A stretch of 64,000 bases of DNA from Shigella phage CM8. Within the stretch, counting starts at the first letter, position 1. Each line of letters starts with the position of its first letter. The stretch lies in sequence record MK962750, one strand, 5' to 3'. Shown piece by piece: positions 1 through 39,478 of the stretch. The position numbers and the translations under genes were made by a program. The notes below the pieces were generated by a model. The model worked only from the letters and a program-made list of their open reading frames with translations. It did not search any database and was not told the DNA's origin.

Positions 1-111
1 AATTAACAATCCAAAAAGACTACCTGCAAGAGCTGCAGCCAACGCCACAGCAAAAATTAAAAATGACTCAGAAAACGAATATTTGACTTTATTTAGTTTT
101 GGCTTTTGCAT
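1..111 (-). CDS. partial ORF (N-terminal part only; 3' end beyond window start), hydrophobic N-terminus
   Basis: Minus-strand ATG near 109-111 reading MQKPKLNKVKYSFSESFLIFAVALAAALAGSLFGLLI... off the window edge; signal-anchor-like hydrophobic stretch. Start coordinate approximate. Confidence 0.3.
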   Translation of the reverse strand, partial: MQKPKLNKVKYSFSESFLIFAVALAAALAGSLFGLLI

Positions 112-485
112 CGTGATTCCTTAACAAATTTCATAATTTCATCAAATTCATACGCAGCAAGTTTAAGCTGATGTTCCTTTTTAATCTTTTTACACTGTGC
201 TTTCCAATCACGCACGCGTTTACGATAATGCCTTCCTTGATACCAGTATCCTACCCAATTTACGGGTACTAATAAAAGTGGAACTATTAATGGAAGAATT
301 AGCATTAACACAAGTATTTCGCCAGAATCAATATCAGTCATAACATCTAAAACACCTCCAATAATCAATAGAATTACAAATGATATGAGTATAACAGGAC
401 CTATTAACACATCAGTAGAAATTATCTGACGCTTTAATTCATACTTCAACGGTTTACTTGGAAGGTATAGTGATGGCTTTGACAT
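93..485 (-). CDS. small membrane protein, two hydrophobic helices
   Basis: ORF track 93..506; first ATG is residue 8 (MSKPSLY...) with AAGGA upstream. Hydrophobic segments VLIGPVILISFVILLIIGGVL and ILVLMLILPLIVPLLLVPV. Confidence 0.5.
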   Translation of the reverse strand: MSKPSLYLPSKPLKYELKRQIISTDVLIGPVILISFVILLIIGGVLDVMTDIDSGEILVLMLILPLIVPLLLVPVNWVGYWYQGRHYRKRVRDWKAQCKKIKKEHQLKLAAYEFDEIMKFVKESRCKSQN

Positions 486-1068
486 ATTCTCTACATTCCT
501 TAACAAATTTTTCTAGTAATAAATCACTTTCAAAATTGGGATTTTCTACAAATTTATCAAAAAGATCATCAACAATAGTTAAGATATTCTTTTTACTAAG
601 AATACGTTTATTTTCATGCTTCGTTTCAGAATCAACTATAAGAGTAAAGAAATATTTCTTGCCCTGAAATTTTACAGTAGTATCAATATAAAATAAATTT
701 GACTTTTGTAAATTACGTTTAAACCATGCGTCACTTAAACTATAAACACCGAGATAATCAAAATCGTCGTTTAAATAACAAACCGTCCATTCAGGAGAAA
801 TGAAATCAGTAAATTCAACATCAAAATCACACGTCAATGAATGAATTGATTCAATACTGTTAATGAGTATTCCAGGACGTATTAAAGACTTTTTACCTCT
901 AGAAAATCTTCCGGAAAGGCTTTCATCAGTTTCATATGAAGACCCCCAATAGTAATTACGTCCTTCTGCCATGCGTTTAAGAGCATTTAGTAATTGGTCT
1001 GGAACATCAACCTGTCTTTGGAACTCTTCAAACATTGAATTGAAATCACTTTGCATTTTCATTTTCAT
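454..1068 (-). CDS. hypothetical protein (204 aa)
   Basis: Long ORF in the minus-strand early block, begins ATG-AAA-ATG-AAA-ATG; no recognisable motif. Confidence 0.55.
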   Translation of the reverse strand: MKMKMQSDFNSMFEEFQRQVDVPDQLLNALKRMAEGRNYYWGSSYETDESLSGRFSRGKKSLIRPGILINSIESIHSLTCDFDVEFTDFISPEWTVCYLNDDFDYLGVYSLSDAWFKRNLQKSNLFYIDTTVKFQGKKYFFTLIVDSETKHENKRILSKKNILTIVDDLFDKFVENPNFESDLLLEKFVKECREYVKAITIPSK

Positions 1069-1109: not shown

Positions 1110-1703
1110 TTATTTCAGAGAATTAATGTATTCCTGAACATCGGCAGAGGTAGTTTCAACCCCAGAAATATTACCGTTAAAGGTTTCAACTCGAGCAAGG
1201 GTATCTTCAATATCAACCTTAGTCAGTGCTGCAATTTCAACTACATCATCAGCAGTACTAATTCCAAGGGCATTTGCTGCACGAGTTTCACGGATATATT
1301 CCAATTTAACTGCAAGTTCTTGGCGAGCATCATCCAATTCAACTACTTTCTTGGCGATTTCAATTCGCATTTCAGCATAACCATCAGCTTTAGTAGTCAA
1401 CTGTTCAGCTGTTCGACGATATAGCAAGCCGAGTTTAGCATGCATTGTTACATCTTGACTTTCAGAAAGAAGCTTGCGAATTTCACGCTCTTTTGATTCG
1501 GCCTGTCGATTCTTTTCGACAATAAGTTCACGAATACGTTTTTCTTCATTAATAGATTTAACAGAAGCAGTTTTTAGATCTTTAATTTTATCAAGTAGTT
1601 TTGCTGCTGCAGCAGTATACTGTTCTTCGACAGATAGATTTTTAGCCATAGCAGAACCAAGTTTAGTGCGAATAAACTCAACAATTTTCTTCAGTGTGTT
1701 CAT
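1110..1703 (-). CDS. coiled-coil protein with weak PspA/IM30-like character
   Basis: 197-aa ORF rich in heptad-like charged helical sequence ([27 protein letters not shown]...), RBS AAGGAAA before ATG, hairpin terminator just downstream. Family assignment is tentative. Confidence 0.55.
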
Positions 1704-1991: not shown

Positions 1992-2255
1992 TTATTTCAT
2001 ATTATTGAAATATTCTTCTGCGATTTCGTCGTTATCATGGTAAACTTTAGAAGACAGTTTAACATAACCTTCAGCAGTGAACATGTTAATCACAACCTTT
2101 ACAGTATACCACTGACCATCTTCATTACCCATTACTGCGTAAGTTTCAAACATCGGATGGTCAGGACCGATAACTTTAATATCATTCACTGTACGACCGA
2201 AATCTTCTGAAACACATTTCATAAAGAAGTTGAACAGCTCACCGTAATTATCCAT
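1992..2255 (-). CDS. hypothetical protein (87 aa from first ATG)
   Basis: ORF track 1992..2318 begins at a TTG; first ATG (MDNYGELF...) is preceded by GGAGA. An early-promoter-like TTTACA-17-TACTAT lies upstream near 2330-2390. Confidence 0.5.
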   Translation of the reverse strand: MDNYGELFNFFMKCVSEDFGRTVNDIKVIGPDHPMFETYAVMGNEDGQWYTVKVVINMFTAEGYVKLSSKVYHDNDEIAEEYFNNMK

Positions 2256-2329
2256 TTCATTCTCCAAGTTGTTTTCTGTATCAGTAGTTGATAGTTGTAT
2301 AGTACCATGGAAGGACAAGGATGTAAACC

Positions 2330-2390
2330 GTTTTGTGAAAAAATTTTTAAAAAGTTTTGGGGAATTCTAGGGCAGGAAGGGGAAATCAAA
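2330..2390 (-). promoter_or_regulatory. early-promoter-like element related to the repeated core
   Basis: Contains tgtaaaccgttttgtgaaa; minus strand gives GTTTACA - 17 nt - TACTAT upstream of gene 1992..2255. Coordinates approximate. Confidence 0.45.
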
Positions 2391-2465
2391 GGATAGGATA
2401 ATATATTATAAAGGGTAGAAACTAAATGATGTCTAGAGAGGCCTGGAAAGGCCTAGATACCAAAA

Positions 2466-2489
2466 AGCCCCAACCTTTCGGTCGGGGCT
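2466..2489 (-). terminator. hairpin terminator downstream of the internal-protein-like gene
   Basis: On the minus strand 10-bp stem (one G-U) with GAAA loop; identical 31-bp element repeated near 3017-3047. Confidence 0.6.
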
Positions 2490-2496
2490 AAGAATG

Positions 2497-2970
2497 TTAT
2501 TTGATTTGTTTAGCAGACCAAATGCGATCTTTAATAATTTTTTGGATGTCTTCAACATACTCAAGAGAGTGAGCATGTGGATTATCTTTGAAACTATAAG
2601 CACGAGCTAGTTTTTGGCCTTCAGTTTTGATTACTAAAAGCTCTTTAAGGATAGCTTCATATTTGGAGATAATTCCTTTAACAATATTTTTTTCTTGTGC
2701 AGCTTTAGGATCTGCTTTAGGAGCAGGTTTACCCGAAGCCTTTGCAAAAGCAGCGCCAGTAGCAACTAAACTTTTCCAGGCCATACTAACTGCATTTCCC
2801 GTAAATCCTTCCGCTTTCATGTCGCGTGCGAACTGGAATCGCGATTCATCAGAAGCATCTTTATAAGAATATTTACCCGCTGCAATGGCTGCTTTTGCGA
2901 CAGCTTGAATTTCGGTGCTAGATGCTTCATTTAACACCGCTTCATTTAAAAATTGAGTATATGATTTCAT
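2497..2970 (-). CDS. internal protein-like (capsid targeting sequence at N-terminus; IPII/IPIII-like)
   Basis: N-terminus MKSYTQFLNEAVLNEA matches the T4 internal-protein capsid targeting sequence consensus (MKTYQEFIxEA) with L-x-E sites of the type cut by the gp21 prohead protease. Confidence 0.65.
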   Translation of the reverse strand: MKSYTQFLNEAVLNEASSTEIQAVAKAAIAAGKYSYKDASDESRFQFARDMKAEGFTGNAVSMAWKSLVATGAAFAKASGKPAPKADPKAAQEKNIVKGIISKYEAILKELLVIKTEGQKLARAYSFKDNPHAHSLEYVEDIQKIIKDRIWSAKQIK

Positions 2971-3020
2971 CTTATTTCCTGTTTTAATTCGTGGTTTTAA
3001 TATACTTATTTATACTAAAA

Positions 3021-3044
3021 AGCCCCAACCTTTCGGTCGGGGCT
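3021..3044 (-). terminator. hairpin terminator (second copy of the 2466 element)
   Basis: Identical sequence aaaaagccccaacctttcggtcggggctaag. Confidence 0.55.
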
Positions 3045-3353
3045 AAGCCTTGCGGCAACCTTGTCGGGGTTCCACCTGCTAAGGCAAGTGTTTGTACGAA
3101 ACGCCGGGATTCGAACCCGGTTATTAAGCAGTTGACGCTACTCAATATTTTTAAAAGGCCATATCTCGACCATATCCGAACGTTCCGTCAAAAACGCTAC
3201 TCGGCTTACGGCAAAGATATTTCCTCGAATCGATAATTCGGTGCGCCGTTTCTGCTGTGATGTAAGAGGGCATCAATAAACGCAAAGATTATTAACGCAA
3301 TTCCTTACTCAGGGAACATCAGTCCGACGACTTACCGGTAGCGACCCGGTTTC

Positions 3354-3704
3354 TTAATATTCTTTTAAAGCATCAATCTGTTTACGGCGTTCACGCCATA
3401 AATCAATTGCTTCATACGCGGATTCAACATTTCGAATTGGACGGCATTTATATAAAGATTTGTGATTTTGATATTGCGTAGATAACGGAATTTTATCTAA
3501 AAGGTCTTTACGTTCAAAGTATTCGTAACCATCTAAGCCAAATGAACGATTTTTGAGAAATTGCCAATGACCAAATTCGTTTTGAATATAAATATAATCC
3601 GCATGTTGATAAAGTAAATTAATTTCACGAAATGAGATATGTTTTTCATATTCATTGAAGTAAAATGTTAAATCATGAACTACTAAATAAACATTACCTT
3701 TCAT
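3354..3704 (-). CDS. hypothetical protein (116 aa)
   Basis: ATG-initiated ORF immediately downstream of tRNA-Arg on the minus strand; no motif recognised. Confidence 0.55.
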   Translation of the reverse strand: MKGNVYLVVHDLTFYFNEYEKHISFREINLLYQHADYIYIQNEFGHWQFLKNRSFGLDGYEYFERKDLLDKIPLSTQYQNHKSLYKCRPIRNVESAYEAIDLWRERRKQIDALKEY

Positions 3705-3722
3705 ATTTTCCTCACTTATAAT

Positions 3723-3798
3723 TGGTCGAGGCAGTAGGGATCGAACCTACGACCTAGGACTTAGAAGGTCCTTGCTCTTCCTTCTGAGCTATGCCCCG
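3723..3798 (-). tRNA. tRNA-Arg (anticodon UCU)
   Basis: 76 nt folded by hand: 7-bp acceptor stem CGGGGCA/UGCCUCG, anticodon arm AGGAC-CUUCUAA-GUCCU, T-arm GUAGG-UUCGAUC-CCUAC, encoded CCA. Confidence 0.88.
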
Positions 3799-3802
3799 TA
3801 AT

Positions 3803-3900
3803 TGGGGTGACCGATGGGAGTCGAACCACCCGAGTCGCAATGACAATGGATTTACAGTCCACACCGCTACCTCTACGGGATAACTCCCCTTAATTCTTAA
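3803..3900 (-). ncRNA. unassigned stable-RNA candidate between tRNA-Ile and tRNA-Arg (tRNA-like, not a canonical cloverleaf)
   Basis: About 100 nt with no ORF, GGGGAG 5' end, TTCGA T-loop-like motif and CCCCA 3' end, but I could not fold a canonical T-stem or acceptor stem. T4 carries two stable RNAs of unknown function in its tRNA region (recalled). Confidence 0.3.
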
Positions 3901-3902
3901 TT

Positions 3903-3977
3903 TGGTGGCCCTGGGTGGAATTGAACCACCATCTGGCGATTATGAGTCGCTTGCTTGAACCTTCCAGCTACAGGGCC
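3903..3977 (-). tRNA. tRNA with anticodon CAU (Ile by analogy to T4, or Met)
   Basis: 75 nt: acceptor GGCCCUG/CAGGGCC, anticodon loop CUCAUAA, T-arm GGUGG-UUCAAUU-CCACC, encoded CCA. Confidence 0.8.
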
Positions 3978-3978
3978 T

Positions 3979-4054
3979 TGGTGCTGATTGACGGAATCGA
4001 ACCGCCGACCTTCTCATTACAAGTGAGTTGCTCTACCTACTGAGCTAAATCAGC
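3979..4054 (-). tRNA. tRNA-Thr (anticodon UGU)
   Basis: 76 nt: acceptor GCUGAUU/AAUCAGC, D-arm GCUC-AGUAGGUA-GAGC, anticodon loop CUUGUAA, T-arm GGCGG-UUCGAUU-CCGUC, CCA encoded. Confidence 0.9.
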
Positions 4055-4059
4055 AAAAC

Positions 4060-4149
4060 TGGCGGAGGCGATAGGATTTGAACCTATGAGTCGCCGGAGC
4101 GACTGCCGGTTTTCAAGACCGGTGCATTAAACCACTCTGCCACGCCTCC
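4060..4149 (-). tRNA. tRNA-Ser (anticodon UGA), long variable arm
   Basis: 90 nt: acceptor GGAGGCG/CGCCUCC, anticodon arm CCGGU-CUUGAAA-ACCGG, long variable arm, T-arm AUAGG-UUCAAAU-CCUAU, CCA encoded. Confidence 0.9.
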
Positions 4150-4155
4150 AAATAT

Positions 4156-4806
4156 TTATATATTGTTAATTTGATTTAGAATTCTTTTTGCTTGAGTATG
4201 ACTTACGCCAATATGCTTAGCATATTTAGACAATTCGCCACGTTTAGAAAAATCATATAATTTAGAAATTTCTATTCTTCTTTTTCTTTCATCCGCAGAA
4301 ACTTTTGCTTCGTTTGCTTTTGCTATTTTACGTTTAGCTTCTTGAGAATGAGTTTTACCAGCAAAGCCATTCTTCATTAATCCATTTGAAGACCATCCTT
4401 TTAATTTTCCGTTAGAATGTGCCTTTTTAACACCCAATGAAATTAATTCGCGTTGCTGATCTGTCATAGGATAATTATTTATATGATCCCATCCACCTTC
4501 ACCTCCAAGTTTTAAATTATACACATCTGGTCTATTTAAAAACTCTTCTGTGACAATATTTTTCTCGGCTTCAAGCATAGATTCTTTATCGTCAAAATAC
4601 TCTAATATTTCTTTAGAAAAATTTTCTATACCATATTTATCTTGGGCTCTTTTTAATAATTTACCAGAACCCATATATCCATCATCTAAATTTTCGGTAG
4701 AATGCACACCAATATAAATTTTATTATTAATTTTATTTGTTATTTTATAAAGATAAAAATGCATATCAGTCCCTAATAAAGAACTGAGCGTCTCACGACG
4801 AGTCAT
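4156..4806 (-). CDS. segB: GIY-YIG homing endonuclease (SegB-like) inside the tRNA cluster
   Basis: FYLYKITNKINNKIYIGV...YMGSGK is a GIY-YIG motif; 216 aa; sits between tRNA-Gly and tRNA-Ser, as recalled for T4 segB. Confidence 0.75.
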   Translation of the reverse strand: MTRRETLSSLLGTDMHFYLYKITNKINNKIYIGVHSTENLDDGYMGSGKLLKRAQDKYGIENFSKEILEYFDDKESMLEAEKNIVTEEFLNRPDVYNLKLGGEGGWDHINNYPMTDQQRELISLGVKKAHSNGKLKGWSSNGLMKNGFAGKTHSQEAKRKIAKANEAKVSADERKRRIEISKLYDFSKRGELSKYAKHIGVSHTQAKRILNQINNI

Positions 4807-4810
4807 AAAT

Positions 4811-4884
<74 letters not shown>

Positions 4885-4889
4885 AAATT

Positions 4890-4976
4890 TGGTGCGAGAA
4901 GTGGGACTCGAACCCACAAGGAAATCATTCCGCAGCATTTTAAGTGCTGTGCCTTTACCAATTTGACCATTCTCGC
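4890..4976 (-). tRNA. tRNA-Leu (anticodon UAA), long variable arm
   Basis: 87 nt: acceptor GCGAGAA/UUCUCGC, anticodon arm CAGCA-CUUAAAA-UGCUG, T-arm GUGGG-UUCGAGU-CCCAC, CCA encoded. Confidence 0.88.
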
Positions 4977-4982
4977 GCTATA

Positions 4983-5591
4983 TTATTTATTACGTGAAAA
5001 AGACTGTTCTATCAATTCTGGACACTTTCGTTCTATCCATTTTCTAGCTTTTTGTGGGCTTATACCTATTATTTTAGCAGCTTTACTAACCCATCCAAAT
5101 TTAGAATAATCGATTTTAACTAATTCTTCGTAAATTTCATCAGTTAAAATCTTTTCATTAATATTTACCAGTAAATGATATAATTTATTATCATTAGCAA
5201 TTTTAATGAATCTTTTATAGTTTCCGCCTTTACTTAAACCTAATGAAGTAATTGCAGATGATATAGTAGCCGAATTTAATAGTGCGTTTAAAATTTCTTC
5301 ATCACTAACATTATAACGCTTTTTATTATTTTTAATATTTTTACCAGCAAAAGTATCAGTTTGCGAATGGCAGTTTGGACATAATAATCTTAAATTTGAT
5401 TTAAGATGATTTTTGTTATTTCCATCAATATGGTCTAATTGCAGAACAATATGCTTATTTTGCCATTTTGAAATTTTACAAATTGCACACTCATATGGAA
5501 AAATATTTTCTTTTATTATTTTGTCTTTCAGCTTTCCTGTACTAAAATTTGGATGTTTTCCTTCAAAAATTTCAGCTAATTTAGTATCCAT
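4983..5591 (-). CDS. HNH homing endonuclease
   Basis: LQLDHIDGNNKNHLKSNLRLLCPNCHSQ is an HNH motif; ORF track start is TTG, first ATG is residue 9; directly upstream of tRNA-Leu. Confidence 0.75.
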   Translation of the reverse strand: MDTKLAEIFEGKHPNFSTGKLKDKIIKENIFPYECAICKISKWQNKHIVLQLDHIDGNNKNHLKSNLRLLCPNCHSQTDTFAGKNIKNNKKRYNVSDEEILNALLNSATISSAITSLGLSKGGNYKRFIKIANDNKLYHLLVNINEKILTDEIYEELVKIDYSKFGWVSKAAKIIGISPQKARKWIERKCPELIEQSFSRNK

Positions 5592-5690
5592 AATATGATT
5601 CCCAATTATTAACAAAGGCTCTCTAACAAGAACCCTTGATGATAGAGGGTATTAATCAGTGCGGTATGAGTTAATAATAACAAATAATTC

Positions 5691-7066: not shown

Positions 7067-7127
7067 TTTATTCTCCTCAGTAGCTGATAGGGTAATAGTA
7101 TCACTACTAAAACCCAATGTAAACAAT
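7067..7127 (-). promoter_or_regulatory. promoter-in-hairpin element (early-promoter-like, PeSL-type)
   Basis: Minus strand reads GTTTACA - 17 nt - TGaTACTAT with flanking inverted repeat; shares the core gatagggtaatagtatcactactaaaacccaatgtaaaca with six other copies. Confidence 0.6.
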
Positions 7128-7352
7128 TTATTCAACGCCAGCGGCTTTCAAAAGTTTCTTAAGATTGGCAACACCTTGAGCAGAAAATGTGACCTTGCCA
7201 CCTTTTTCACTGATAGAACCAACCAATTTAGCAAGTTTATCATTAGGAATTTTTTTAAAATCAGCCAATGTTCCATCAAAGGTTTTTGAAACAAAAGGCA
7301 GTTCGTCTTCGCGTCTTTTAGCTTCTACAATAAATTCTTGATATGTTTTCAT
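7128..7352 (-). CDS. internal protein-like small protein (74 aa) with capsid targeting sequence
   Basis: Starts MKTYQEFIVEA (capsid targeting sequence consensus) from the second ATG, which has GGAAA-N5 upstream; promoter-in-hairpin element upstream. Confidence 0.65.
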   Translation of the reverse strand: MKTYQEFIVEAKRREDELPFVSKTFDGTLADFKKIPNDKLAKLVGSISEKGGKVTFSAQGVANLKKLLKAAGVE

Positions 7353-7436
7353 TTTAGTTTCCATTTGAGTGTTTGTTTTGATAGGGTAATAGTATCACTA
7401 CTAAAACCCAATGTAAACAACTTTGTGAAAAATTTA
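7353..7436 (-). promoter_or_regulatory. promoter-in-hairpin element upstream of the 74-aa internal-protein-like gene
   Basis: Same repeated core plus ctttgtgaaa; -35 GTTTACA, 17-nt spacer, extended -10 TGaTACTAT on the minus strand. Confidence 0.6.
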
Positions 7437-7724
7437 TTACAAAAGATTTTTAGCAATAATCTTGAGATGTGCCGCAGAAATGTGTTTAGCTTTAAACAAC
7501 GCAGTTTCTTCAGCAGGAGAGATAACGATTGTAGCACCATCCTTTTTAGCAGACCACCCATCGCCTAGGTAAACAGTACCTTTGATTTCTTCGCCATCAA
7601 CCAGACTAATCATTGGTTTACCTTCTCGTCCTTTATTTGCTTTAATAACTTCAGAAGTAAGAGTAGCTTCGGTAATAGTAGAAACCGGGGTAGTTGTAGA
7701 AGTAAATTCTTTGAAAGTTTTCAT
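7437..7724 (-). CDS. ipI: internal protein I-like (95 aa), copy 1
   Basis: MKTFKEFTSTTTPVSTITE|ATL...: cleavage after the 19-aa targeting sequence at I-T-E would leave 76 aa, matching the recalled size of mature IPI*; sits next to 57B as in T4. Confidence 0.6.
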   Translation of the reverse strand: MKTFKEFTSTTTPVSTITEATLTSEVIKANKGREGKPMISLVDGEEIKGTVYLGDGWSAKKDGATIVISPAEETALFKAKHISAAHLKIIAKNLL

Positions 7725-7796
7725 TTTATTTTCCTAATTAATTTTGATAGGGTAATAGTATCACAACTAAAACCCTATGTAAACAACTTTGTGAAA
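7725..7796 (-). promoter_or_regulatory. promoter-in-hairpin element upstream of ipI-like copy 1
   Basis: Inverted repeat atagggt / accctat bracketing the spacer and -10; then AGGAAA-N5-ATG. Confidence 0.6.
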
Positions 7797-8054
7797 TTAT
7801 TTTAAATCTTCTAATCGTTTCTTCATCTTAGAACCGTTCTTAGCGATTTCGCCTGCATCAGAGCATAATGCTAAAAGCGCTTTAACTTTAGTTTGGTCTC
7901 CTTTAAAAGATGAAGGATCAACAGCAGCAGCAAGTTCTTTAATACGAGAGAAAAGACGCTCAGCTTCAGCTAAAGCCATTCCAAGCTTTACTTCCATACC
8001 GCGGGAAGATTCAGTAATAGTAGTTTTTGTAGCAAACTCTTTGAAAGTTTTCAT
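7797..8054 (-). CDS. internal protein-like small protein (85 aa) with capsid targeting sequence, copy 1
   Basis: MKTFKEFATKTTITE... with I-T-E and L-A-E sites; preceded by a promoter-in-hairpin element. Confidence 0.6.
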   Translation of the reverse strand: MKTFKEFATKTTITESSRGMEVKLGMALAEAERLFSRIKELAAAVDPSSFKGDQTKVKALLALCSDAGEIAKNGSKMKKRLEDLK

Positions 8055-8126
8055 TTTATTTTCCTAATTAATTTTGATGAGGTAATAGTATCACTACCTC
8101 ATCAGTATGTAAACAACTTTGTGAAA
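8055..8126 (-). promoter_or_regulatory. promoter-in-hairpin element, variant with 9-bp stem
   Basis: gatgaggta ... tacctcatc perfect inverted repeat around the -10; same -35 core. Confidence 0.6.
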
Positions 8127-8698
<572 letters not shown>

Positions 8699-8770
8699 TT
8701 TATTTTCCTAATTAATTTTGATAGGGTAATAGTATCACAACTAAAACCCTATGTAAACAACTTTGTGAAA
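8699..8770 (-). promoter_or_regulatory. promoter-in-hairpin element upstream of ipI-like copy 2
   Basis: Identical to 7725..7796. Confidence 0.6.
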
Positions 8771-9028
8771 TTATTTTAAATCTTCTAATCGTTTCTTCAT
8801 CTTAGAACCGTTCTTAGCGATTTCGCCTGCATCAGAGCATAATGCTAAAAGCGCTTTAACTTTAGTTTGGTCTCCTTTAAAAGATGAAGGATCAACAGCA
8901 GCAGCAAGTTCTTTAATACGAGAGAAAAGACGCTCAGCTTCAGCTAAAGCCATTCCAAGCTTTACTTCCATACCGCGGGAAGATTCAGTAATAGTAGTTT
9001 TTGTAGCAAACTCTTTGAAAGTTTTCAT
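8771..9028 (-). CDS. internal protein-like small protein (85 aa), copy 2
   Basis: Protein identical to 7797..8054. Confidence 0.6.
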   Translation of the reverse strand: MKTFKEFATKTTITESSRGMEVKLGMALAEAERLFSRIKELAAAVDPSSFKGDQTKVKALLALCSDAGEIAKNGSKMKKRLEDLK

Positions 9029-9100
9029 TTTATTTTCCTAATTAATTTTGATGAGGTAATAGTATCACTACCTCATCAGTATGTAAACAACTTTGTGAAA
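9029..9100 (-). promoter_or_regulatory. promoter-in-hairpin element, 9-bp stem variant, copy 2
   Basis: Identical to 8055..8126. Confidence 0.6.
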
Positions 9101-9785
<685 letters not shown>

Positions 9786-37326: not shown

Positions 37327-37327
<1 letters not shown>

Positions 37328-37575
37328 TGGAAGGTTTAATTGAAGCTATTAAATCAAACGACCTCGTAGCCGCTCGTAAATTATTTGCTGAAGCCATGGC
37401 TGCAAGAACGATTGATTTAATTAAAGAAGAAAAAATCGCTATCGCTCGTAATTTCTTAATCGAAGGTGAAGAACCTGATGACGAGGATGATGACGAAGAC
37501 GAAGATAGTGATGATAAAGACGACAAAAAAGACAAAGATTCTGATGAAGATGACGAAGACGAGGATGATGAATAA
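37327..37575 (+). CDS. 67: gp67 prohead core protein, acidic C-terminal tail
   Basis: 82 aa ending in a D/E-rich stretch ([19 protein letters not shown]...); position between 20 and 68. Confidence 0.85.
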
Positions 37576-38000
37576 TGCTTCTGATCCCTGAAACTCATGA
37601 ATTAGTTCTCGAGAATGTCGAAGCACTTATTCCTGAAGCACAGGGTCGCTTTGACGAATTGTCTTCTGCTTTAAATAAAGACGATATAAATACAATTGTC
37701 GAGAATATGCTTGATGATGAAACTGATTTAGCGGTTGCATTAGCTTCTATTAATGAAAATATGCCGCTAAATGAATTTATCGTTAAACATGTTTCCGCCC
37801 GTGGTGAAATTACTCGCACTAAAGACCGCAAAACGCGTGAACGTAATGCATTTCAAACCACTGGGTTGTCTAAAGCAAAACGTAGACAAATTGCTCGTAA
37901 AGCTACCAAAACGAAGATTGCCAATCCAGCAGGTCAATCTCGTGCTCAGCGTAAGCGTAAAAAAGCTCTTAAACGCCGTAAAGCATTAGGATTAAGCTAA
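37575..38000 (+). CDS. 68: gp68 prohead core protein
   Basis: 141 aa; synteny; overlapping start/stop. Confidence 0.85.
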
Positions 38001-38638
38001 TGAATGAACCCCAATTACTAATTGAAACTTGGGGTCAACCTGGCGAAATTATTGATGGCGTACCAATGCTTGAATCTCATGATGGAAAAGACTTAGGTTT
38101 AAAACCGGGTTTATACATCGAAGGAATATTCATGCAAGCGGAAGTCGTCAATAGAAATAAACGTCTTTATCCAAAACGTATATTAGAAAAAGCGGTAAAA
38201 GACTATATTAATGAGCAAGTTTTAACTAAACAAGCTCTCGGAGAATTAAATCATCCTCCACGCGCTAATGTTGACCCGATGCAAGCCGCTATCATTATAG
38301 AAGATATGTGGTGGAAAGGAAATGACGTATACGGACGAGCTCGTGTTATTGAAGGTGACCACGGTCCTGGAGATAAATTAGCAGCTAATATTCGTGCCGG
38401 ATGGATTCCAGGAGTTTCTTCTCGTGGATTAGGTTCATTGACTGACACAAATAAAGGTTATCGTATCGTAAACGAAGGATTCAAATTAACTGTAGGTGTT
38501 GATGCAGTATGGGGTCCAAGTGCTCCAGATGCATGGGTAACTCCTAAGGAAATTACCGAATCACAGACGGCGGAAGCCGATACAAGTGCCGATGACGCCT
38601 ATATGGCTCTCGCAGAGGCCATGAAAAAAGCGTTATAA
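38000..38638 (+). CDS. 21: gp21 prohead protease
   Basis: 212 aa; synteny 68-21-22-23. Confidence 0.92.
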   Translation: MNEPQLLIETWGQPGEIIDGVPMLESHDGKDLGLKPGLYIEGIFMQAEVVNRNKRLYPKRILEKAVKDYINEQVLTKQALGELNHPPRANVDPMQAAIIIEDMWWKGNDVYGRARVIEGDHGPGDKLAANIRAGWIPGVSSRGLGSLTDTNKGYRIVNEGFKLTVGVDAVWGPSAPDAWVTPKEITESQTAEADTSADDAYMALAEAMKKAL

Positions 38639-38668: not shown

Positions 38669-39478
38669 ATGCTTAAAGAACAACTGATTGCTGAAGCGCA
38701 AAAAATTGATGCTTCCGTTGCTCTTGATAGTATTTTCGAATCAGTTAATATTTCTCCGGAAGCAAAAGAAACTTTCGGCACTGTATTCGAAGCTACCGTC
38801 AAGCAGCACGCCGTTAAATTAGCTGAATCTCATATCGCTAAAATTGCTGAAAAAGCAGAAGAAGAAGTAGAAAAAAATAAAGAAGAAGCAGAAGAAAAAG
38901 CTGAGAAGAAAATCGCTGAGCAAGCTTCTAAATTCCTTGACCATCTTGCAAAAGAATGGCTCACTGAAAATAAATTAGCAGTAGATAAAGGTATCAAAGC
39001 CGAACTGTTTGAATCCATGCTTGGTGGATTGAAAGAGCTCTTCGTTGAACACAACGTTGTTGTTCCAGAAGAATCAGTTGATGTTGTAGCTGAAATGGAA
39101 GAAGAGCTGCAAGAACATAAAGAAGAATCAGCTCGTCTGTTCGAAGAACTCAATAAGCGTGACGCATATATCAATTATGTGCAGCGTGAAGTGGCATTGA
39201 GCGAAAGTACTAAAGATCTGACTGAGTCTCAAAAAGAAAAAGTCTCTGCTCTGGTCGAAGGTATGGATTATTCAGATGAATTCTCAAGTAAATTGAGTGC
39301 CATCGTAGAAATGGTGAAGAAATCTAATAAAGATGAAAGCACTATTACTGAGAGTATAAATACTCCTGATACTGAAGCAGCCGGACTGAATTTCGTCACT
39401 GAAGCTGTAGAAGATAAATCTGCACAAGGTGCAGAAGATATTGTAAGTGTATATGCGAAAGTCGCATCTCGTTTCTAA
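38669..39478 (+). CDS. 22: gp22 prohead core scaffold
   Basis: 269 aa acidic coiled coil; the gene 23 late promoter lies inside its 3' end. Confidence 0.92.
   Translation: MLKEQLIAEAQKIDASVALDSIFESVNISPEAKETFGTVFEATVKQHAVKLAESHIAKIAEKAEEEVEKNKEEAEEKAEKKIAEQASKFLDHLAKEWLTENKLAVDKGIKAELFESMLGGLKELFVEHNVVVPEESVDVVAEMEEELQEHKEESARLFEELNKRDAYINYVQREVALSESTKDLTESQKEKVSALVEGMDYSDEFSSKLSAIVEMVKKSNKDESTITESINTPDTEAAGLNFVTEAVEDKSAQGAEDIVSVYAKVASRF
39355..39362 (+). promoter_or_regulatory. late promoter TATAAATA (gene 23), inside the 3' end of gene 22
   Basis: Consensus within gene 22 coding sequence, upstream of gene 23. Confidence 0.65.

What the first reader, a model, noticed from the sequence alone, without database searches (positions are those of the whole stretch)
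2497..2970. Second internal-protein-like gene (157 aa) sitting close to the tRNA cluster
Starts MKSYTQFLNEAVLNEA, a clear capsid targeting sequence, but its length fits neither T4 IPII (about 100 aa) nor IPIII (about 194 aa) as I recall them. It lies only about 750 bp from tRNA-Arg, whereas in T4 the ipII/ipIII genes are separated from the tRNAs by the endolysin gene e and the e.1-e.8 ORFs. Both the protein and its neighbourhood therefore look rearranged relative to the reference arrangement.
Basis: partly seen in the sequence, partly recalled or inferred. Interest (0 to 1): 0.45.

Follow-up and report, generated by a model that had tools for sequence, protein, structure and literature searches.

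The report
Unrecognised T4-type internal head protein gene
This 157-codon gene of a T4-like coliphage very probably encodes a protein that is packed inside the phage head and injected with the DNA, a class now known to disarm bacterial restriction enzymes. Databases call it "hypothetical", and it sits in its normal, conserved place rather than in a rearranged one.

Summary
The ORF is real: window 2497..2970, minus strand, 157 aa, starting MKSYTQFLNEAVLNEA, 753 bp from tRNA-Arg. It is under strong purifying selection (dN/dS 0.07-0.17).

Its leader keeps all four residues shown experimentally to matter in the T4 IPIII capsid targeting sequence: Y4 and F7 for targeting, L8 and E10 for gp21 cleavage. 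It also has a second LNE site. Distant homologues (family phrog_2280) keep this leader. The gene is a self-contained unit: terminator, T4 late promoter TATAAATA, Shine-Dalgarno, ORF, terminator. A Klebsiella Jiaodavirus has the same layout.

A 99.4%-identical orthologue, Yersinia phage fD1 g140, was detected by LC-MS/MS in purified virions, although that dataset has low specificity.

The "rearranged" reading is wrong. The gene is unrelated to IPII, IPIII or Ip4 beyond the leader. Genes e.8, e.6, e.5 and e.4 follow it as in T4. The same slot (tRNAs/rnaC, then this gene, then the e.x genes) is occupied in at least five Tevenvirinae genera. T4 lacks a 555-bp cassette bounded by a 36-nt direct repeat of the terminator hairpin.

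Verdict: a new, unnamed member of the known internal-protein class, at a third ip locus. Its target is unknown; it is probably an injected anti-defence factor. Interest is moderate.

The parts
2497..2970 (-). Coding sequence of the 157-aa candidate internal head protein (stop codon included). It belongs to phrog_2280 and equals RB32ORF133c, NBG2 gp127 and fD1 g140.
   Evidence: ORF list. PHROG match at 2e-60 with no Pfam hit. 100% identical to AWM12072.1. dN/dS 0.07-0.17. fD1 g140 is 156/157 identical and was detected in virions.
2926..2970 (-). Codons 1-15, the predicted propeptide / capsid targeting sequence MKSYTQFLNE|AVLNE|A. It carries two gp21-type L-x-E cleavage sites, produced by a 15-nt tandem duplication (TTAAATGAAGCGGTG / TTAAATGAAGCATCT).
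   Evidence: Alignment with T4 IPI/II/III leaders. L-x-E sites at residues 8-10 and 13-15. The LH2 orthologue has the single-site form. Critical residues are taken from PMC9026906.
2975..2980 (-). Shine-Dalgarno sequence AGGAAA, 4 nt upstream of the ATG.
   Evidence: Read from the sequence. It is conserved in orthologues.
3007..3014 (-). T4 late-promoter box TATAAATA, 36 nt upstream of the ATG.
   Evidence: It is conserved upstream of orthologues in RB32, RB27, Nami and LH2 and of the homologue in Klebsiella phage KpV477; Mosigvirus and Dhakavirus have AATAAATA. No early-type promoter lies upstream, unlike ipI/ipII/ipIII.
3016..3044 (-). Intrinsic terminator hairpin plus T-run that ends the tRNA/rnaD/rnaC transcription unit. 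It is the upstream copy of the direct repeat (repeat span 3012-3047).
   Evidence: Terminator scan and repeat finder. NBG2 annotates a terminator at this place.
2457..2492 (-). Downstream copy of the 36-nt direct repeat, which is the terminator hairpin (2466-2489) of the cassette. Recombination between the two copies would give exactly the T4 arrangement.
   Evidence: The RB32 record notes 'flanked by 34 bp imperfect direct repeat'.
2687..2693 (-). A7 homopolymer at the linker/C-domain boundary. Database variants with A8 or A6 give products truncated to about 93-111 aa.
3095..3233 (-). rnaC (species 1 stable RNA), the upstream neighbour; context only.
   Evidence: Local alignment to the annotated T4 rnaC, score 135 over 139 nt.
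1992..2255 (-). e.8 orthologue, the downstream neighbour, 86/87 identical to T4 e.8. Its own early-type promoter lies at 2299-2327; context only.
38000..38638 (+). gp21 prohead protease (Peptidase_S77), the enzyme predicted to remove the propeptide. The scaffold protein gp22 lies at 38669-39478 and gp67 at 37327-37575.
   Evidence: Pfam: 1.5e-111 for gp21, 4.6e-90 for gp22, 1.6e-42 for gp67.

Best explanation
The ORF encodes a previously unnamed T4-type internal head protein.

**Proposed mechanism**
1. Late in infection, gp55-RNA polymerase transcribes the gene from its own TATAAATA promoter. The gene forms a short unit insulated by identical terminator hairpins on both sides.
2. The N-terminal leader MKSYTQFLNE(AVLNE) works as a capsid targeting sequence. 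It binds the protein to the gp22 scaffolding core of the prohead.
3. The prohead protease gp21 then cuts after Glu10 and/or Glu15 (L-N-E|A). This releases a basic (pI about 9.6), Lys-rich, all-helical mature protein of about 15.5 kDa, which stays in the head with the DNA.
4. At the next infection the protein is ejected into the cell ahead of or with the DNA. There it most probably neutralises a host defence. By analogy with Ip1, Ip2, Ip3 and Bas37_0260, that defence would be a modification-dependent (type IV) restriction nuclease.

**What is shown:** the gene is real and conserved; the leader and cleavage motif are present; the late promoter and terminators are present; a near-identical orthologue co-purifies with virions.

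**What is inferred:** targeting, cleavage, injection and the anti-defence role.

**Relation to T4:** T4 lacks the gene because of a clean 555-bp deletion, most simply by recombination between the two hairpin repeats.
For: **Leader**
- It aligns with the T4 IP leaders. M1, K2, Y4, F7, E10 and A11 are identical, and S3 and L8 are conservative changes.
- Mutagenesis mapped targeting to positions 4 and 7 and processing to positions 8 and 10, and the gp21 motif is L/I-x-E (PMC9026906).
- Homologues down to about 25% identity in other genera keep the leader, e.g. MKFKEFLAE|A, MLKFNEFLAE|G, MINFSDFLNE|G, MKSFSSFLNE|G.
- All of these homologues belong to the single family phrog_2280.

**Transcription unit**
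- TATAAATA lies 36 nt upstream of the ATG, directly after a terminator, and a second terminator follows the stop codon.
- Klebsiella Jiaodavirus KpV477 has the same layout although the sequence has diverged. Other Tequatrovirus phages have it too.

**Protein and genome context**
- The gene is under purifying selection, with dN/dS 0.07-0.17.
- The protein is basic (pI 9.5), like T4 IPII (9.3) and IPIII (9.5).
- gp21, gp22 and gp67 are encoded in the same window.

**Virion association**
- fD1 g140 is 156/157 identical. It was scored as a particle-associated protein at the strict LC-MS/MS threshold in ultracentrifuge-purified virions (PMC8309999 Table S3).
- In the same table the two known Ip-locus proteins, g129 and g146, are also particle-associated.

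**Role of the class**
- Ip1-3 each block a distinct GmrSD type IV enzyme (PMC12373910).
- Loss of another leader-bearing protein, Bas37_0260, causes a fitness defect on E. coli K-12 BW25113 but not on a K-12 strain lacking the type IV systems McrA, McrBC and Mrr (bioRxiv 10.1101/2025.11.20.689424).

**Annotation**
- One UniProt entry (Klebsiella phage KPKp, A0AAU8BA37) already calls a homologue 'Internal head protein'.
Against: - **No direct demonstration.** Nothing shows that the protein is inside the head, that the propeptide is removed, or that the protein is injected.
- **The fD1 proteome is unspecific.** It lists 113-137 of 277 phage proteins and 672 host proteins. Clearly non-structural enzymes (DenV, lysozyme e, NudE) are scored as particle-associated. 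Detection therefore proves expression and co-purification, not packaging.
- **The leader is not identical to the T4 consensus** (S3, T5, Q6, L8, N9).
- **The promoter arrangement differs from known ip genes.** T4 ipI, ipII and ipIII are each preceded directly by an early-type promoter; this gene has only a late one.
- **Truncated alleles exist.** Frameshifted or nonsense alleles in several sequenced phages (teqhal, SfPhi01, KpV477) show the gene is dispensable in the laboratory.
Confidence: 0.75

Rival explanations
1. The gene is a displaced or resized orthologue of T4 ipII or ipIII, moved next to the tRNA genes by a genome rearrangement.
For: It shares the N-terminal leader with IPII and IPIII. 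Its length (157 aa) lies between theirs.
Against: BLASTP finds nothing beyond the leader: E=1.1 for a 14-residue patch with IPIII, no alignment at all with IPII, and E=3.6 with Ip4. Gene order around it is T4-like except for the inserted cassette. Relatives with the same gene keep separate Ip genes beside denV/e. The slot is conserved across five genera.
Confidence: 0.02
2. The protein is targeted to the prohead by its leader but acts there, not in the next host. It could be an accessory scaffold/core or DNA-organising protein, like gp67, gp68 or the assembly role reported for IPIII. In that case it would either be degraded by gp21 or remain as a histone-like counter-ion for packaged DNA.
For: The protein is basic and Lys-rich with a Pro/Ala/Lys linker (KPAPKADPKAAQEK), and distant homologues have the same kind of linker. 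Only lysines of internal proteins contact DNA phosphates in T4 heads (PMC3012670). IPIII mutants assemble heads more slowly (PMC9026906). A third L-x-E site (LKE, residues 108-110) lies inside the C-terminal domain. The family is older and more conserved than Ip1-3, spanning several genera with a C-domain dN/dS of 0.01-0.06. That pattern fits a structural role better than an arms-race role.
Against: About half of T-even-type records, including T4, lack the gene (943 records match the region, 510 match the protein). Truncated alleles are common. It therefore cannot be needed for assembly. The internal LKE site is not conserved in the Klebsiella and Yersinia homologues. All functionally solved CTS-bearing small proteins are anti-restriction factors.
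Confidence: 0.15
3. It is a late cytoplasmic protein that is not packaged. The CTS-like N-terminus would be an inherited or recombined remnant without function, and the mass-spectrometry signal would be contamination.
For: The fD1 virion preparation contained many non-structural proteins. The leader deviates from the T4 consensus at five positions.
Against: The leader, including the F..FL.E core, is kept in homologues that have diverged to about 25% identity elsewhere, which argues for selection on it. The cleavage site has been duplicated rather than lost. The first 10 residues of IPIII alone suffice to package foreign proteins (PMC9026906), so a leader that keeps all critical residues is expected to work.
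Confidence: 0.08

Closest known systems
T4 internal proteins IPI, IPII and IPIII (Ip1-3), injected inhibitors of GmrSD-type type IV restriction enzymes
   Same: It has the N-terminal capsid targeting sequence, with the critical Y/F4, F7, L/I8 and E10 residues and a gp21 L/I-x-E cleavage site. It is small, basic and dispensable. It is encoded in the early-strand block between gene e and gene 57B, and a near-identical orthologue is found in virion preparations.
   Different: The mature part shows no sequence similarity to them. It lies at a third locus, between rnaC and e.8. It has only a dedicated late promoter between two terminators, whereas ipI/II/III sit directly behind early-type promoters. 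Its predicted architecture is all-helical with two domains (IPI* is a compact alpha/beta fold according to PMC3012670). It is conserved across several Tevenvirinae genera rather than confined to close T4 relatives. Its target is unknown.
Polymorphic Ip genes of the ipI locus in T-even phages (Ip4, Ip5 and so on, Repoila et al. 1994; Bas37_0260)
   Same: The principle is the same: unrelated cargo domains behind one shared targeting leader. Presence and absence vary among closely related phages. Bas37_0260 is needed on a K-12 strain that carries the type IV systems McrA, McrBC and Mrr.
   Different: Those genes lie in tandem at the ipI locus or the ipII/III locus, each behind a repeated early-promoter element (seen in this window at 7085-9093). 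This one is a solitary cassette bounded by a duplicated terminator. I could not read Repoila et al. (not held), so I cannot exclude that they listed it. The genome records I saw call it hypothetical, apart from one UniProt entry for a Klebsiella phage homologue.
phrog_2280 / RB32ORF133c, 'hypothetical protein, flanked by 34 bp imperfect direct repeat'
   Same: This is the family and the gene itself. The full-length match scores 2e-60, and the RB32 orthologue is 97.5% identical.
   Different: Nothing differs in sequence. The database entries carry no function, and the targeting leader and late promoter are not annotated.

Membership tests
T4-type internal (head) proteins with a capsid targeting sequence | N-terminal leader resembling MKTYQEFIAE, with the targeting determinants at positions 4 (Y/F) and 7 (F) | tested here: met
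   MKSYTQFLNE has Y4 and F7. The determinants are taken from PMC9026906. Only Ip genes and this ORF carry the motif in the window.
T4-type internal (head) proteins with a capsid targeting sequence | gp21 prohead-protease cleavage motif L/I-x-E at the end of the leader, with a gp21 protease encoded by the same phage | tested here: met
   LNE occurs at residues 8-10 and again at 13-15, each followed by Ala. The gp21 gene lies at 38000..38638. Actual cleavage was not tested.
T4-type internal (head) proteins with a capsid targeting sequence | Expression late in infection, when proheads are assembled | tested here: met
   TATAAATA lies 36 nt upstream of the ATG and is conserved in orthologues and in a Jiaodavirus homologue. 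This is a sequence prediction only; no transcript data were examined.
T4-type internal (head) proteins with a capsid targeting sequence | Physical presence inside the mature head | tested here: inconclusive
   The fD1 orthologue g140 was detected by LC-MS/MS in purified virions at the strict threshold. However, 41-49% of all fD1 proteins and 672 host proteins were detected too.
T4-type internal (head) proteins with a capsid targeting sequence | Ejection into the host cell with the DNA | not testable with these tools
   This needs an injection assay.
T4-type internal (head) proteins with a capsid targeting sequence | Small, basic and non-essential | tested here: met
   The precursor is 17.2 kDa with pI 9.5. 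The gene is absent from T4 and truncated in several phages.
T4 IPII / IPIII orthologue | Sequence similarity of the mature protein to IPII or IPIII | tested here: not met
   BLASTP gives no alignment with IPII, and E=1.1 for a 14-residue patch with IPIII.
T4 IPII / IPIII orthologue | Position between denV and e | tested here: not met
   The gene lies between rnaC and e.8. Relatives keep other Ip genes at the denV/e position.
Inhibitors of type IV (GmrSD-like) restriction enzymes | Demonstrated rescue of phage plating on a host carrying the nuclease, or binding to the nuclease | not testable with these tools
   The link is by analogy only. There is no homology or fold match to IPI* or any known inhibitor.

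The most novel reading that the evidence does not exclude
phrog_2280 is an ancient, genus-spanning family of injected head proteins at a third, previously unrecognised ip locus. It would have a modular build: a shared leader, a fast-evolving N-domain that recognises a variable host defence protein, a Pro/Ala/Lys linker and a strongly conserved C-domain. It would inhibit a defence system other than those blocked by Ip1-3. Loss by recombination between the hairpin repeats, together with A7-tract frameshifts, would give phages a cheap way to switch it off.
Probability: 0.3. Interest if true: 0.55.

Novelty: new member of a known kind. Interest (0 to 1): 0.35.

Why it matters
In 2025, T4 Ip2 and Ip3 were shown to block distinct GmrSD type IV restriction enzymes (Ip1 was already known to block one). 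The same year, loss of another leader-bearing protein was shown to impair phage growth on a K-12 strain that carries the type IV systems McrA, McrBC and Mrr. Each new leader-bearing protein is therefore a ready-made candidate anti-defence factor with a cognate, possibly unknown, host system.

This family is present in roughly half of the T-even-type genome records (510 of about 940 matching the region) and in Klebsiella, Enterobacter, Serratia, Yersinia and Erwinia phages that are being developed for therapy. Apart from one UniProt entry for a Klebsiella homologue, the records I saw label it 'hypothetical'. Recognising it as a probable injected protein gives a directly testable host-range determinant. 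It also shows that ip genes are not confined to the two loci known from T4.

The finding does not reveal a new principle.

Tried and rejected
- **Pfam and Rfam:** Pfam had no family for the ORF. Rfam found only the six tRNAs in 2000-5500.
- **Sequence search of the PDB:** a profile search gave nothing at E up to 1.
- **Remote-homology search:** a profile search of 1.84 billion representatives gave 13 proteins, all of the same family, with no link to a characterised protein.
- **Literature:** searches for RB32ORF133c/ABI94957 gave 0 papers. A search for Ip4/Ip5/Ip7 was swamped by inositol phosphates. A search for Tequatrovirus virion proteomes was unproductive. Repoila et al. 1994 is not held. 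The fPS-2 paper contains no proteomics.
- **Swapped C-terminal domain in the Klebsiella/Yersinia homologues:** considered and rejected. All members match phrog_2280 over their full length, so that domain is divergent rather than replaced.
- **A7 tract as a programmed frameshift site:** considered. It fits the X_XXY_YYZ pattern, but there is no evidence beyond indel variants in databases, which may be mutations or sequencing errors. Left as a note.

Full report
**1. The observation**

The ORF exists as described. It lies at window 2497..2970 on the minus strand, has an ATG start, encodes 157 aa and begins MKSYTQFLNEAVLNEASS. ARAGORN places tRNA-Arg(tct) at 3723..3798, so the gap is 753 bp. T4 IPII is 100 aa and IPIII 193 aa, so the length fits neither.

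The window comes from a Tequatrovirus close to teqhal, RB32 and NBG2.

The ORF is a real gene:
- tblastn finds it in 510 phage records, 466 of them nearly full length.
- Nei-Gojobori dN/dS against orthologues of 72-86% identity is 0.07-0.17, with dS between 0.5 and 2.2.

The leader is not a chance match. Among 892 candidate start codons of ORFs of at least 50 aa in six frames, only this ORF and three ipI-locus genes begin MK[ST][YF]x[EQ]F[LIT].

**2. What surrounds it**

I aligned the region with T4 and teqhal. Everything from rnaD/rnaC (window 3240-3354 and 3095-3233) to e.8 (1992-2255, 86/87 identical to T4 e.8) is collinear with T4, with one exception. That exception is a 555-bp block carrying this gene.

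The block is bounded by a 36-nt direct repeat at 2457-2492 and 3012-3047, 97% identical. The repeat is a GC-rich hairpin followed by a T-run, so it looks like an intrinsic terminator. T4 has exactly one copy of the hairpin, joined to the rnaC side on one flank and to the e.8 side on the other. This is what recombination between the two copies would leave.

The RB32 annotators had already noted 'flanked by 34 bp imperfect direct repeat' for RB32ORF133c. NBG2 annotates both hairpins as terminators.

Downstream of the gene the T4 order continues: e.8, a small ORF in place of e.7, then e.6 (1110..1703), e.5 (454..1068) and e.4 (93..506). Gene e and the ipII/ipIII locus therefore lie to the left of the window. 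Nothing has been rearranged.

Relatives that carry the identical or near-identical gene (NBG2, teqhal, fD1) still have their other Ip genes beside denV/e.

**3. A conserved locus that T4 has lost**

The gene occupies the same slot, after the tRNA cluster/rnaC and before the e.x genes, in these phages:

| Phage | Genus |
|---|---|
| RB27, RB32, Nami, LH2, fD1 | Tequatrovirus |
| RPN187 | Mosigvirus |
| 04086 | Dhakavirus |
| Klebsiella phage KpV477 | Jiaodavirus |
| Serratia phage X20 | Winklervirus |

Further homologues occur in Enterobacter, Erwinia, Yersinia, Kosakonia, Raoultella and Cronobacter phages. All fall in one family, phrog_2280 'unknown function', and match it over their full length.

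With this breadth, deletion in the T4 lineage is more parsimonious than repeated insertion. Roughly half of the records that match the surrounding region carry the gene: 943 records against 510.

**4. Evidence that it is an internal head protein**

(a) Leader.
- Aligned with the T4 leaders, M1, K2, Y4, F7, E10 and A11 are identical. S3 and L8 are conservative changes.
- Black's amber-suppressor analysis of the IPIII leader placed targeting at residues 4 and 7 and processing at residues 8 and 10. The gp21 motif is L/I-x-E (PMC9026906 sections 2.5-2.6). All four positions are satisfied here.
- A 15-nt tandem duplication gives a second L-N-E|A site at residues 13-15. The LH2 allele has one site only.
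- Diverged homologues keep the same core. Examples are MKFKEFLAE|A (Klebsiella), MLEYSEFLKE|LFCE|A (Yersinia), MLKFNEFLAE|G, MINFSDFLNE|G and MKSFSSFLNE|G.

(b) Expression signals.
- TATAAATA, the T4 late-promoter box (established knowledge), lies at 3007-3014, 36 nt upstream of the ATG and directly after the upstream terminator. AGGAAA lies 4 nt before the ATG.
- TATAAATA is enriched in the window: 27 copies against 10 expected.
- Klebsiella phage KpV477 has the same order (hairpin, TATAAATA, SD, ORF, hairpin) although its sequences differ. Other Tequatrovirus phages have it too, while Mosigvirus and Dhakavirus carry AATAAATA.

(c) Machinery. gp21 protease, gp22 scaffold, gp67, gp20 and gp23 are all in the window.

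(d) Protein properties. The precursor is 17.2 kDa with pI 9.5, against 9.3 for IPII and 9.5 for IPIII.

(e) Proteomics.
- Yersinia phage fD1 g140 differs from the window protein at one residue.
- It is listed as 'PPAP' at the strict threshold (at least 2 peptides, mean spectral count at least 2) in LC-MS/MS of ultracentrifuge-purified virions (PMC8309999 Table S3).
- The known Ip-locus proteins g129 and g146 are also PPAP.
- The caveat is serious. The list holds 113-137 of 277 phage proteins and 672 host proteins, including DenV, lysozyme and NudE. I treat this as proof of expression and weak support for packaging, with a likelihood ratio of perhaps about 3.

(f) Annotation. One UniProt entry (Klebsiella phage KPKp) already names a homologue 'Internal head protein'. 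Every other record I saw says hypothetical.

**5. What it is not**

BLASTP against IPII, IPIII and teqhal Ip4 finds nothing beyond the leader. It is therefore not a resized IPII or IPIII.

The family has no Pfam model. It has no PDB relative by profile search. It has no characterised relative among 1.84 billion cluster representatives.

**6. Structure and evolution of the protein**

AlphaFold2 with a shallow alignment of 8 sequences gave mean pLDDT 77 and pTM 0.48. The model predicts:
- a three-helix N-domain (residues 18-71);
- a low-confidence Pro/Ala/Lys linker (about residues 76-93, KPAPKADPKAAQEK);
- a long helical hairpin (88-124 and 131-154).

Among Escherichia phages the N-domain occurs in at least three allelic types, with dN 0.20-0.37 and dN/dS about 0.2. 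The C-domain is almost invariant, with dN 0.02-0.05 and dN/dS 0.01-0.06 at similar dS. Nami combines a window-type leader with an RB27-type N-domain, which indicates recombination between alleles. This pattern is compatible with an N-domain that tracks a variable host partner, but it is not proof.

**7. Likely mechanism and rivals**

Best explanation (confidence about 0.75 for 'packaged, CTS-targeted, gp21-processed internal protein'):
1. late transcription from its own promoter;
2. leader-mediated binding to the scaffolding core;
3. removal of 10 or 15 residues by gp21;
4. residence in the DNA-filled head;
5. ejection at infection.

The downstream function is inferred by analogy only. Ip1, Ip2 and Ip3 each block a distinct GmrSD type IV enzyme (PMC12373910). 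Loss of another leader-bearing protein at the ipI locus causes a fitness defect on K-12 BW25113 but not on a K-12 strain lacking McrA, McrBC and Mrr. I put an anti-defence role at about 0.4-0.5 given packaging.

The main rival (0.15) is a head-internal structural or DNA-counter-ion role. The basic, Lys-rich, linker-containing sequence and the unusually deep conservation favour it. The gene's absence from T4 and the frequent truncated alleles count against it.

A non-packaged late protein (0.08) and a relocated IPII/IPIII (0.02) are unlikely.

One real difference from known ip genes should be noted. T4 ipI, ipII and ipIII, and the window's own ipI-locus genes, each sit directly behind an early-type promoter (GTTTACA-N17-TAnnnT). 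This gene has only the late box.

**8. Novelty and score**

The gene has been in databases since RB32 (2006) as a hypothetical ORF. The class it belongs to is well known, so nothing here is new in principle.

What appears unrecognised, as far as the held literature and the annotations show, is that this widespread family carries a capsid targeting sequence and a private late promoter. It therefore defines a third ip locus, one that T4 happens to lack. I could not read Repoila et al. 1994, so I cannot exclude earlier mention.

I rate it a new member of a known kind, with interest 0.35. It is a useful, directly testable candidate anti-defence or host-range gene. It is not a surprise to a T4 specialist.

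Noticed in passing
window 7366-9116: A 974-bp tandem duplication carries ipI (7437..7724 and 8411..8698), an Ip5-like gene (7797..8054 and 8771..9028, identical) and a 3' fragment of 57B (8127..8372), ahead of the full 57B (9101..9559). The best database matches (T4_ev240, RB14, RB3) have a single copy. It could be a genuine gene amplification of anti-restriction genes or an assembly artefact.
   Followed up: partly
window 3799-3902: A chimeric tRNA remnant. The 5' part of tRNA-Tyr is fused at the shared T-loop GGTTCGACTCC to the 3' end of tRNA-His. About 273 bp present in teqhal are missing (the Tyr 3' end, tRNA-Asn, a spacer and most of tRNA-His). Neither ARAGORN nor Rfam calls it a tRNA.
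   Followed up: partly
window 4156-4806 and 4983-5615: A GIY-YIG (segB-like) ORF and an HNH-type ORF (annotated 'F-TflIV' in relatives) lie inside the tRNA cluster, at the places where teqhal and T4 have tRNA-Pro and tRNA-Gln. The window has only six recognisable tRNAs.
   Followed up: partly
window 3354-3704: A 116-aa ORF (phrog_3355, unknown function) lies between tRNA-Arg and rnaD. It is absent from T4 but present in teqhal and Nami, and its stop codon abuts the 5' end of rnaD.
   Followed up: no
window 2687-2693: An A7 run (coding strand) sits exactly at the linker/C-domain boundary of the ORF. A8 alleles (teqhal, SfPhi01; products of about 108-111 aa) and A6 alleles (93 aa) exist in databases. 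In frame the heptamer reads A_AAA_AAT, which resembles a -1 slippery site. These variants could be mutations, sequencing errors or a way to produce an N-domain-only product.
   Followed up: partly
window 7085-9093: A 45-nt element repeated seven times (TGATAGGGTAATAGTATCAC...GTAAACAA on the + strand) precedes each ipI-locus gene. On the coding strand it reads as an early-type promoter, GTTTACA-N17-TACTAT. T4 ipI, ipII and ipIII have the same kind of element and no TATAAATA within 120 nt.
   Followed up: partly
L005 (Klebsiella phage KpV477) 4995-5530: The homologue in this RefSeq genome carries an in-frame TAA where other Klebsiella phages have AAA (Lys). It is therefore annotated as a 78-aa fragment, and could be a pseudogene or a sequencing error.
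   Followed up: no
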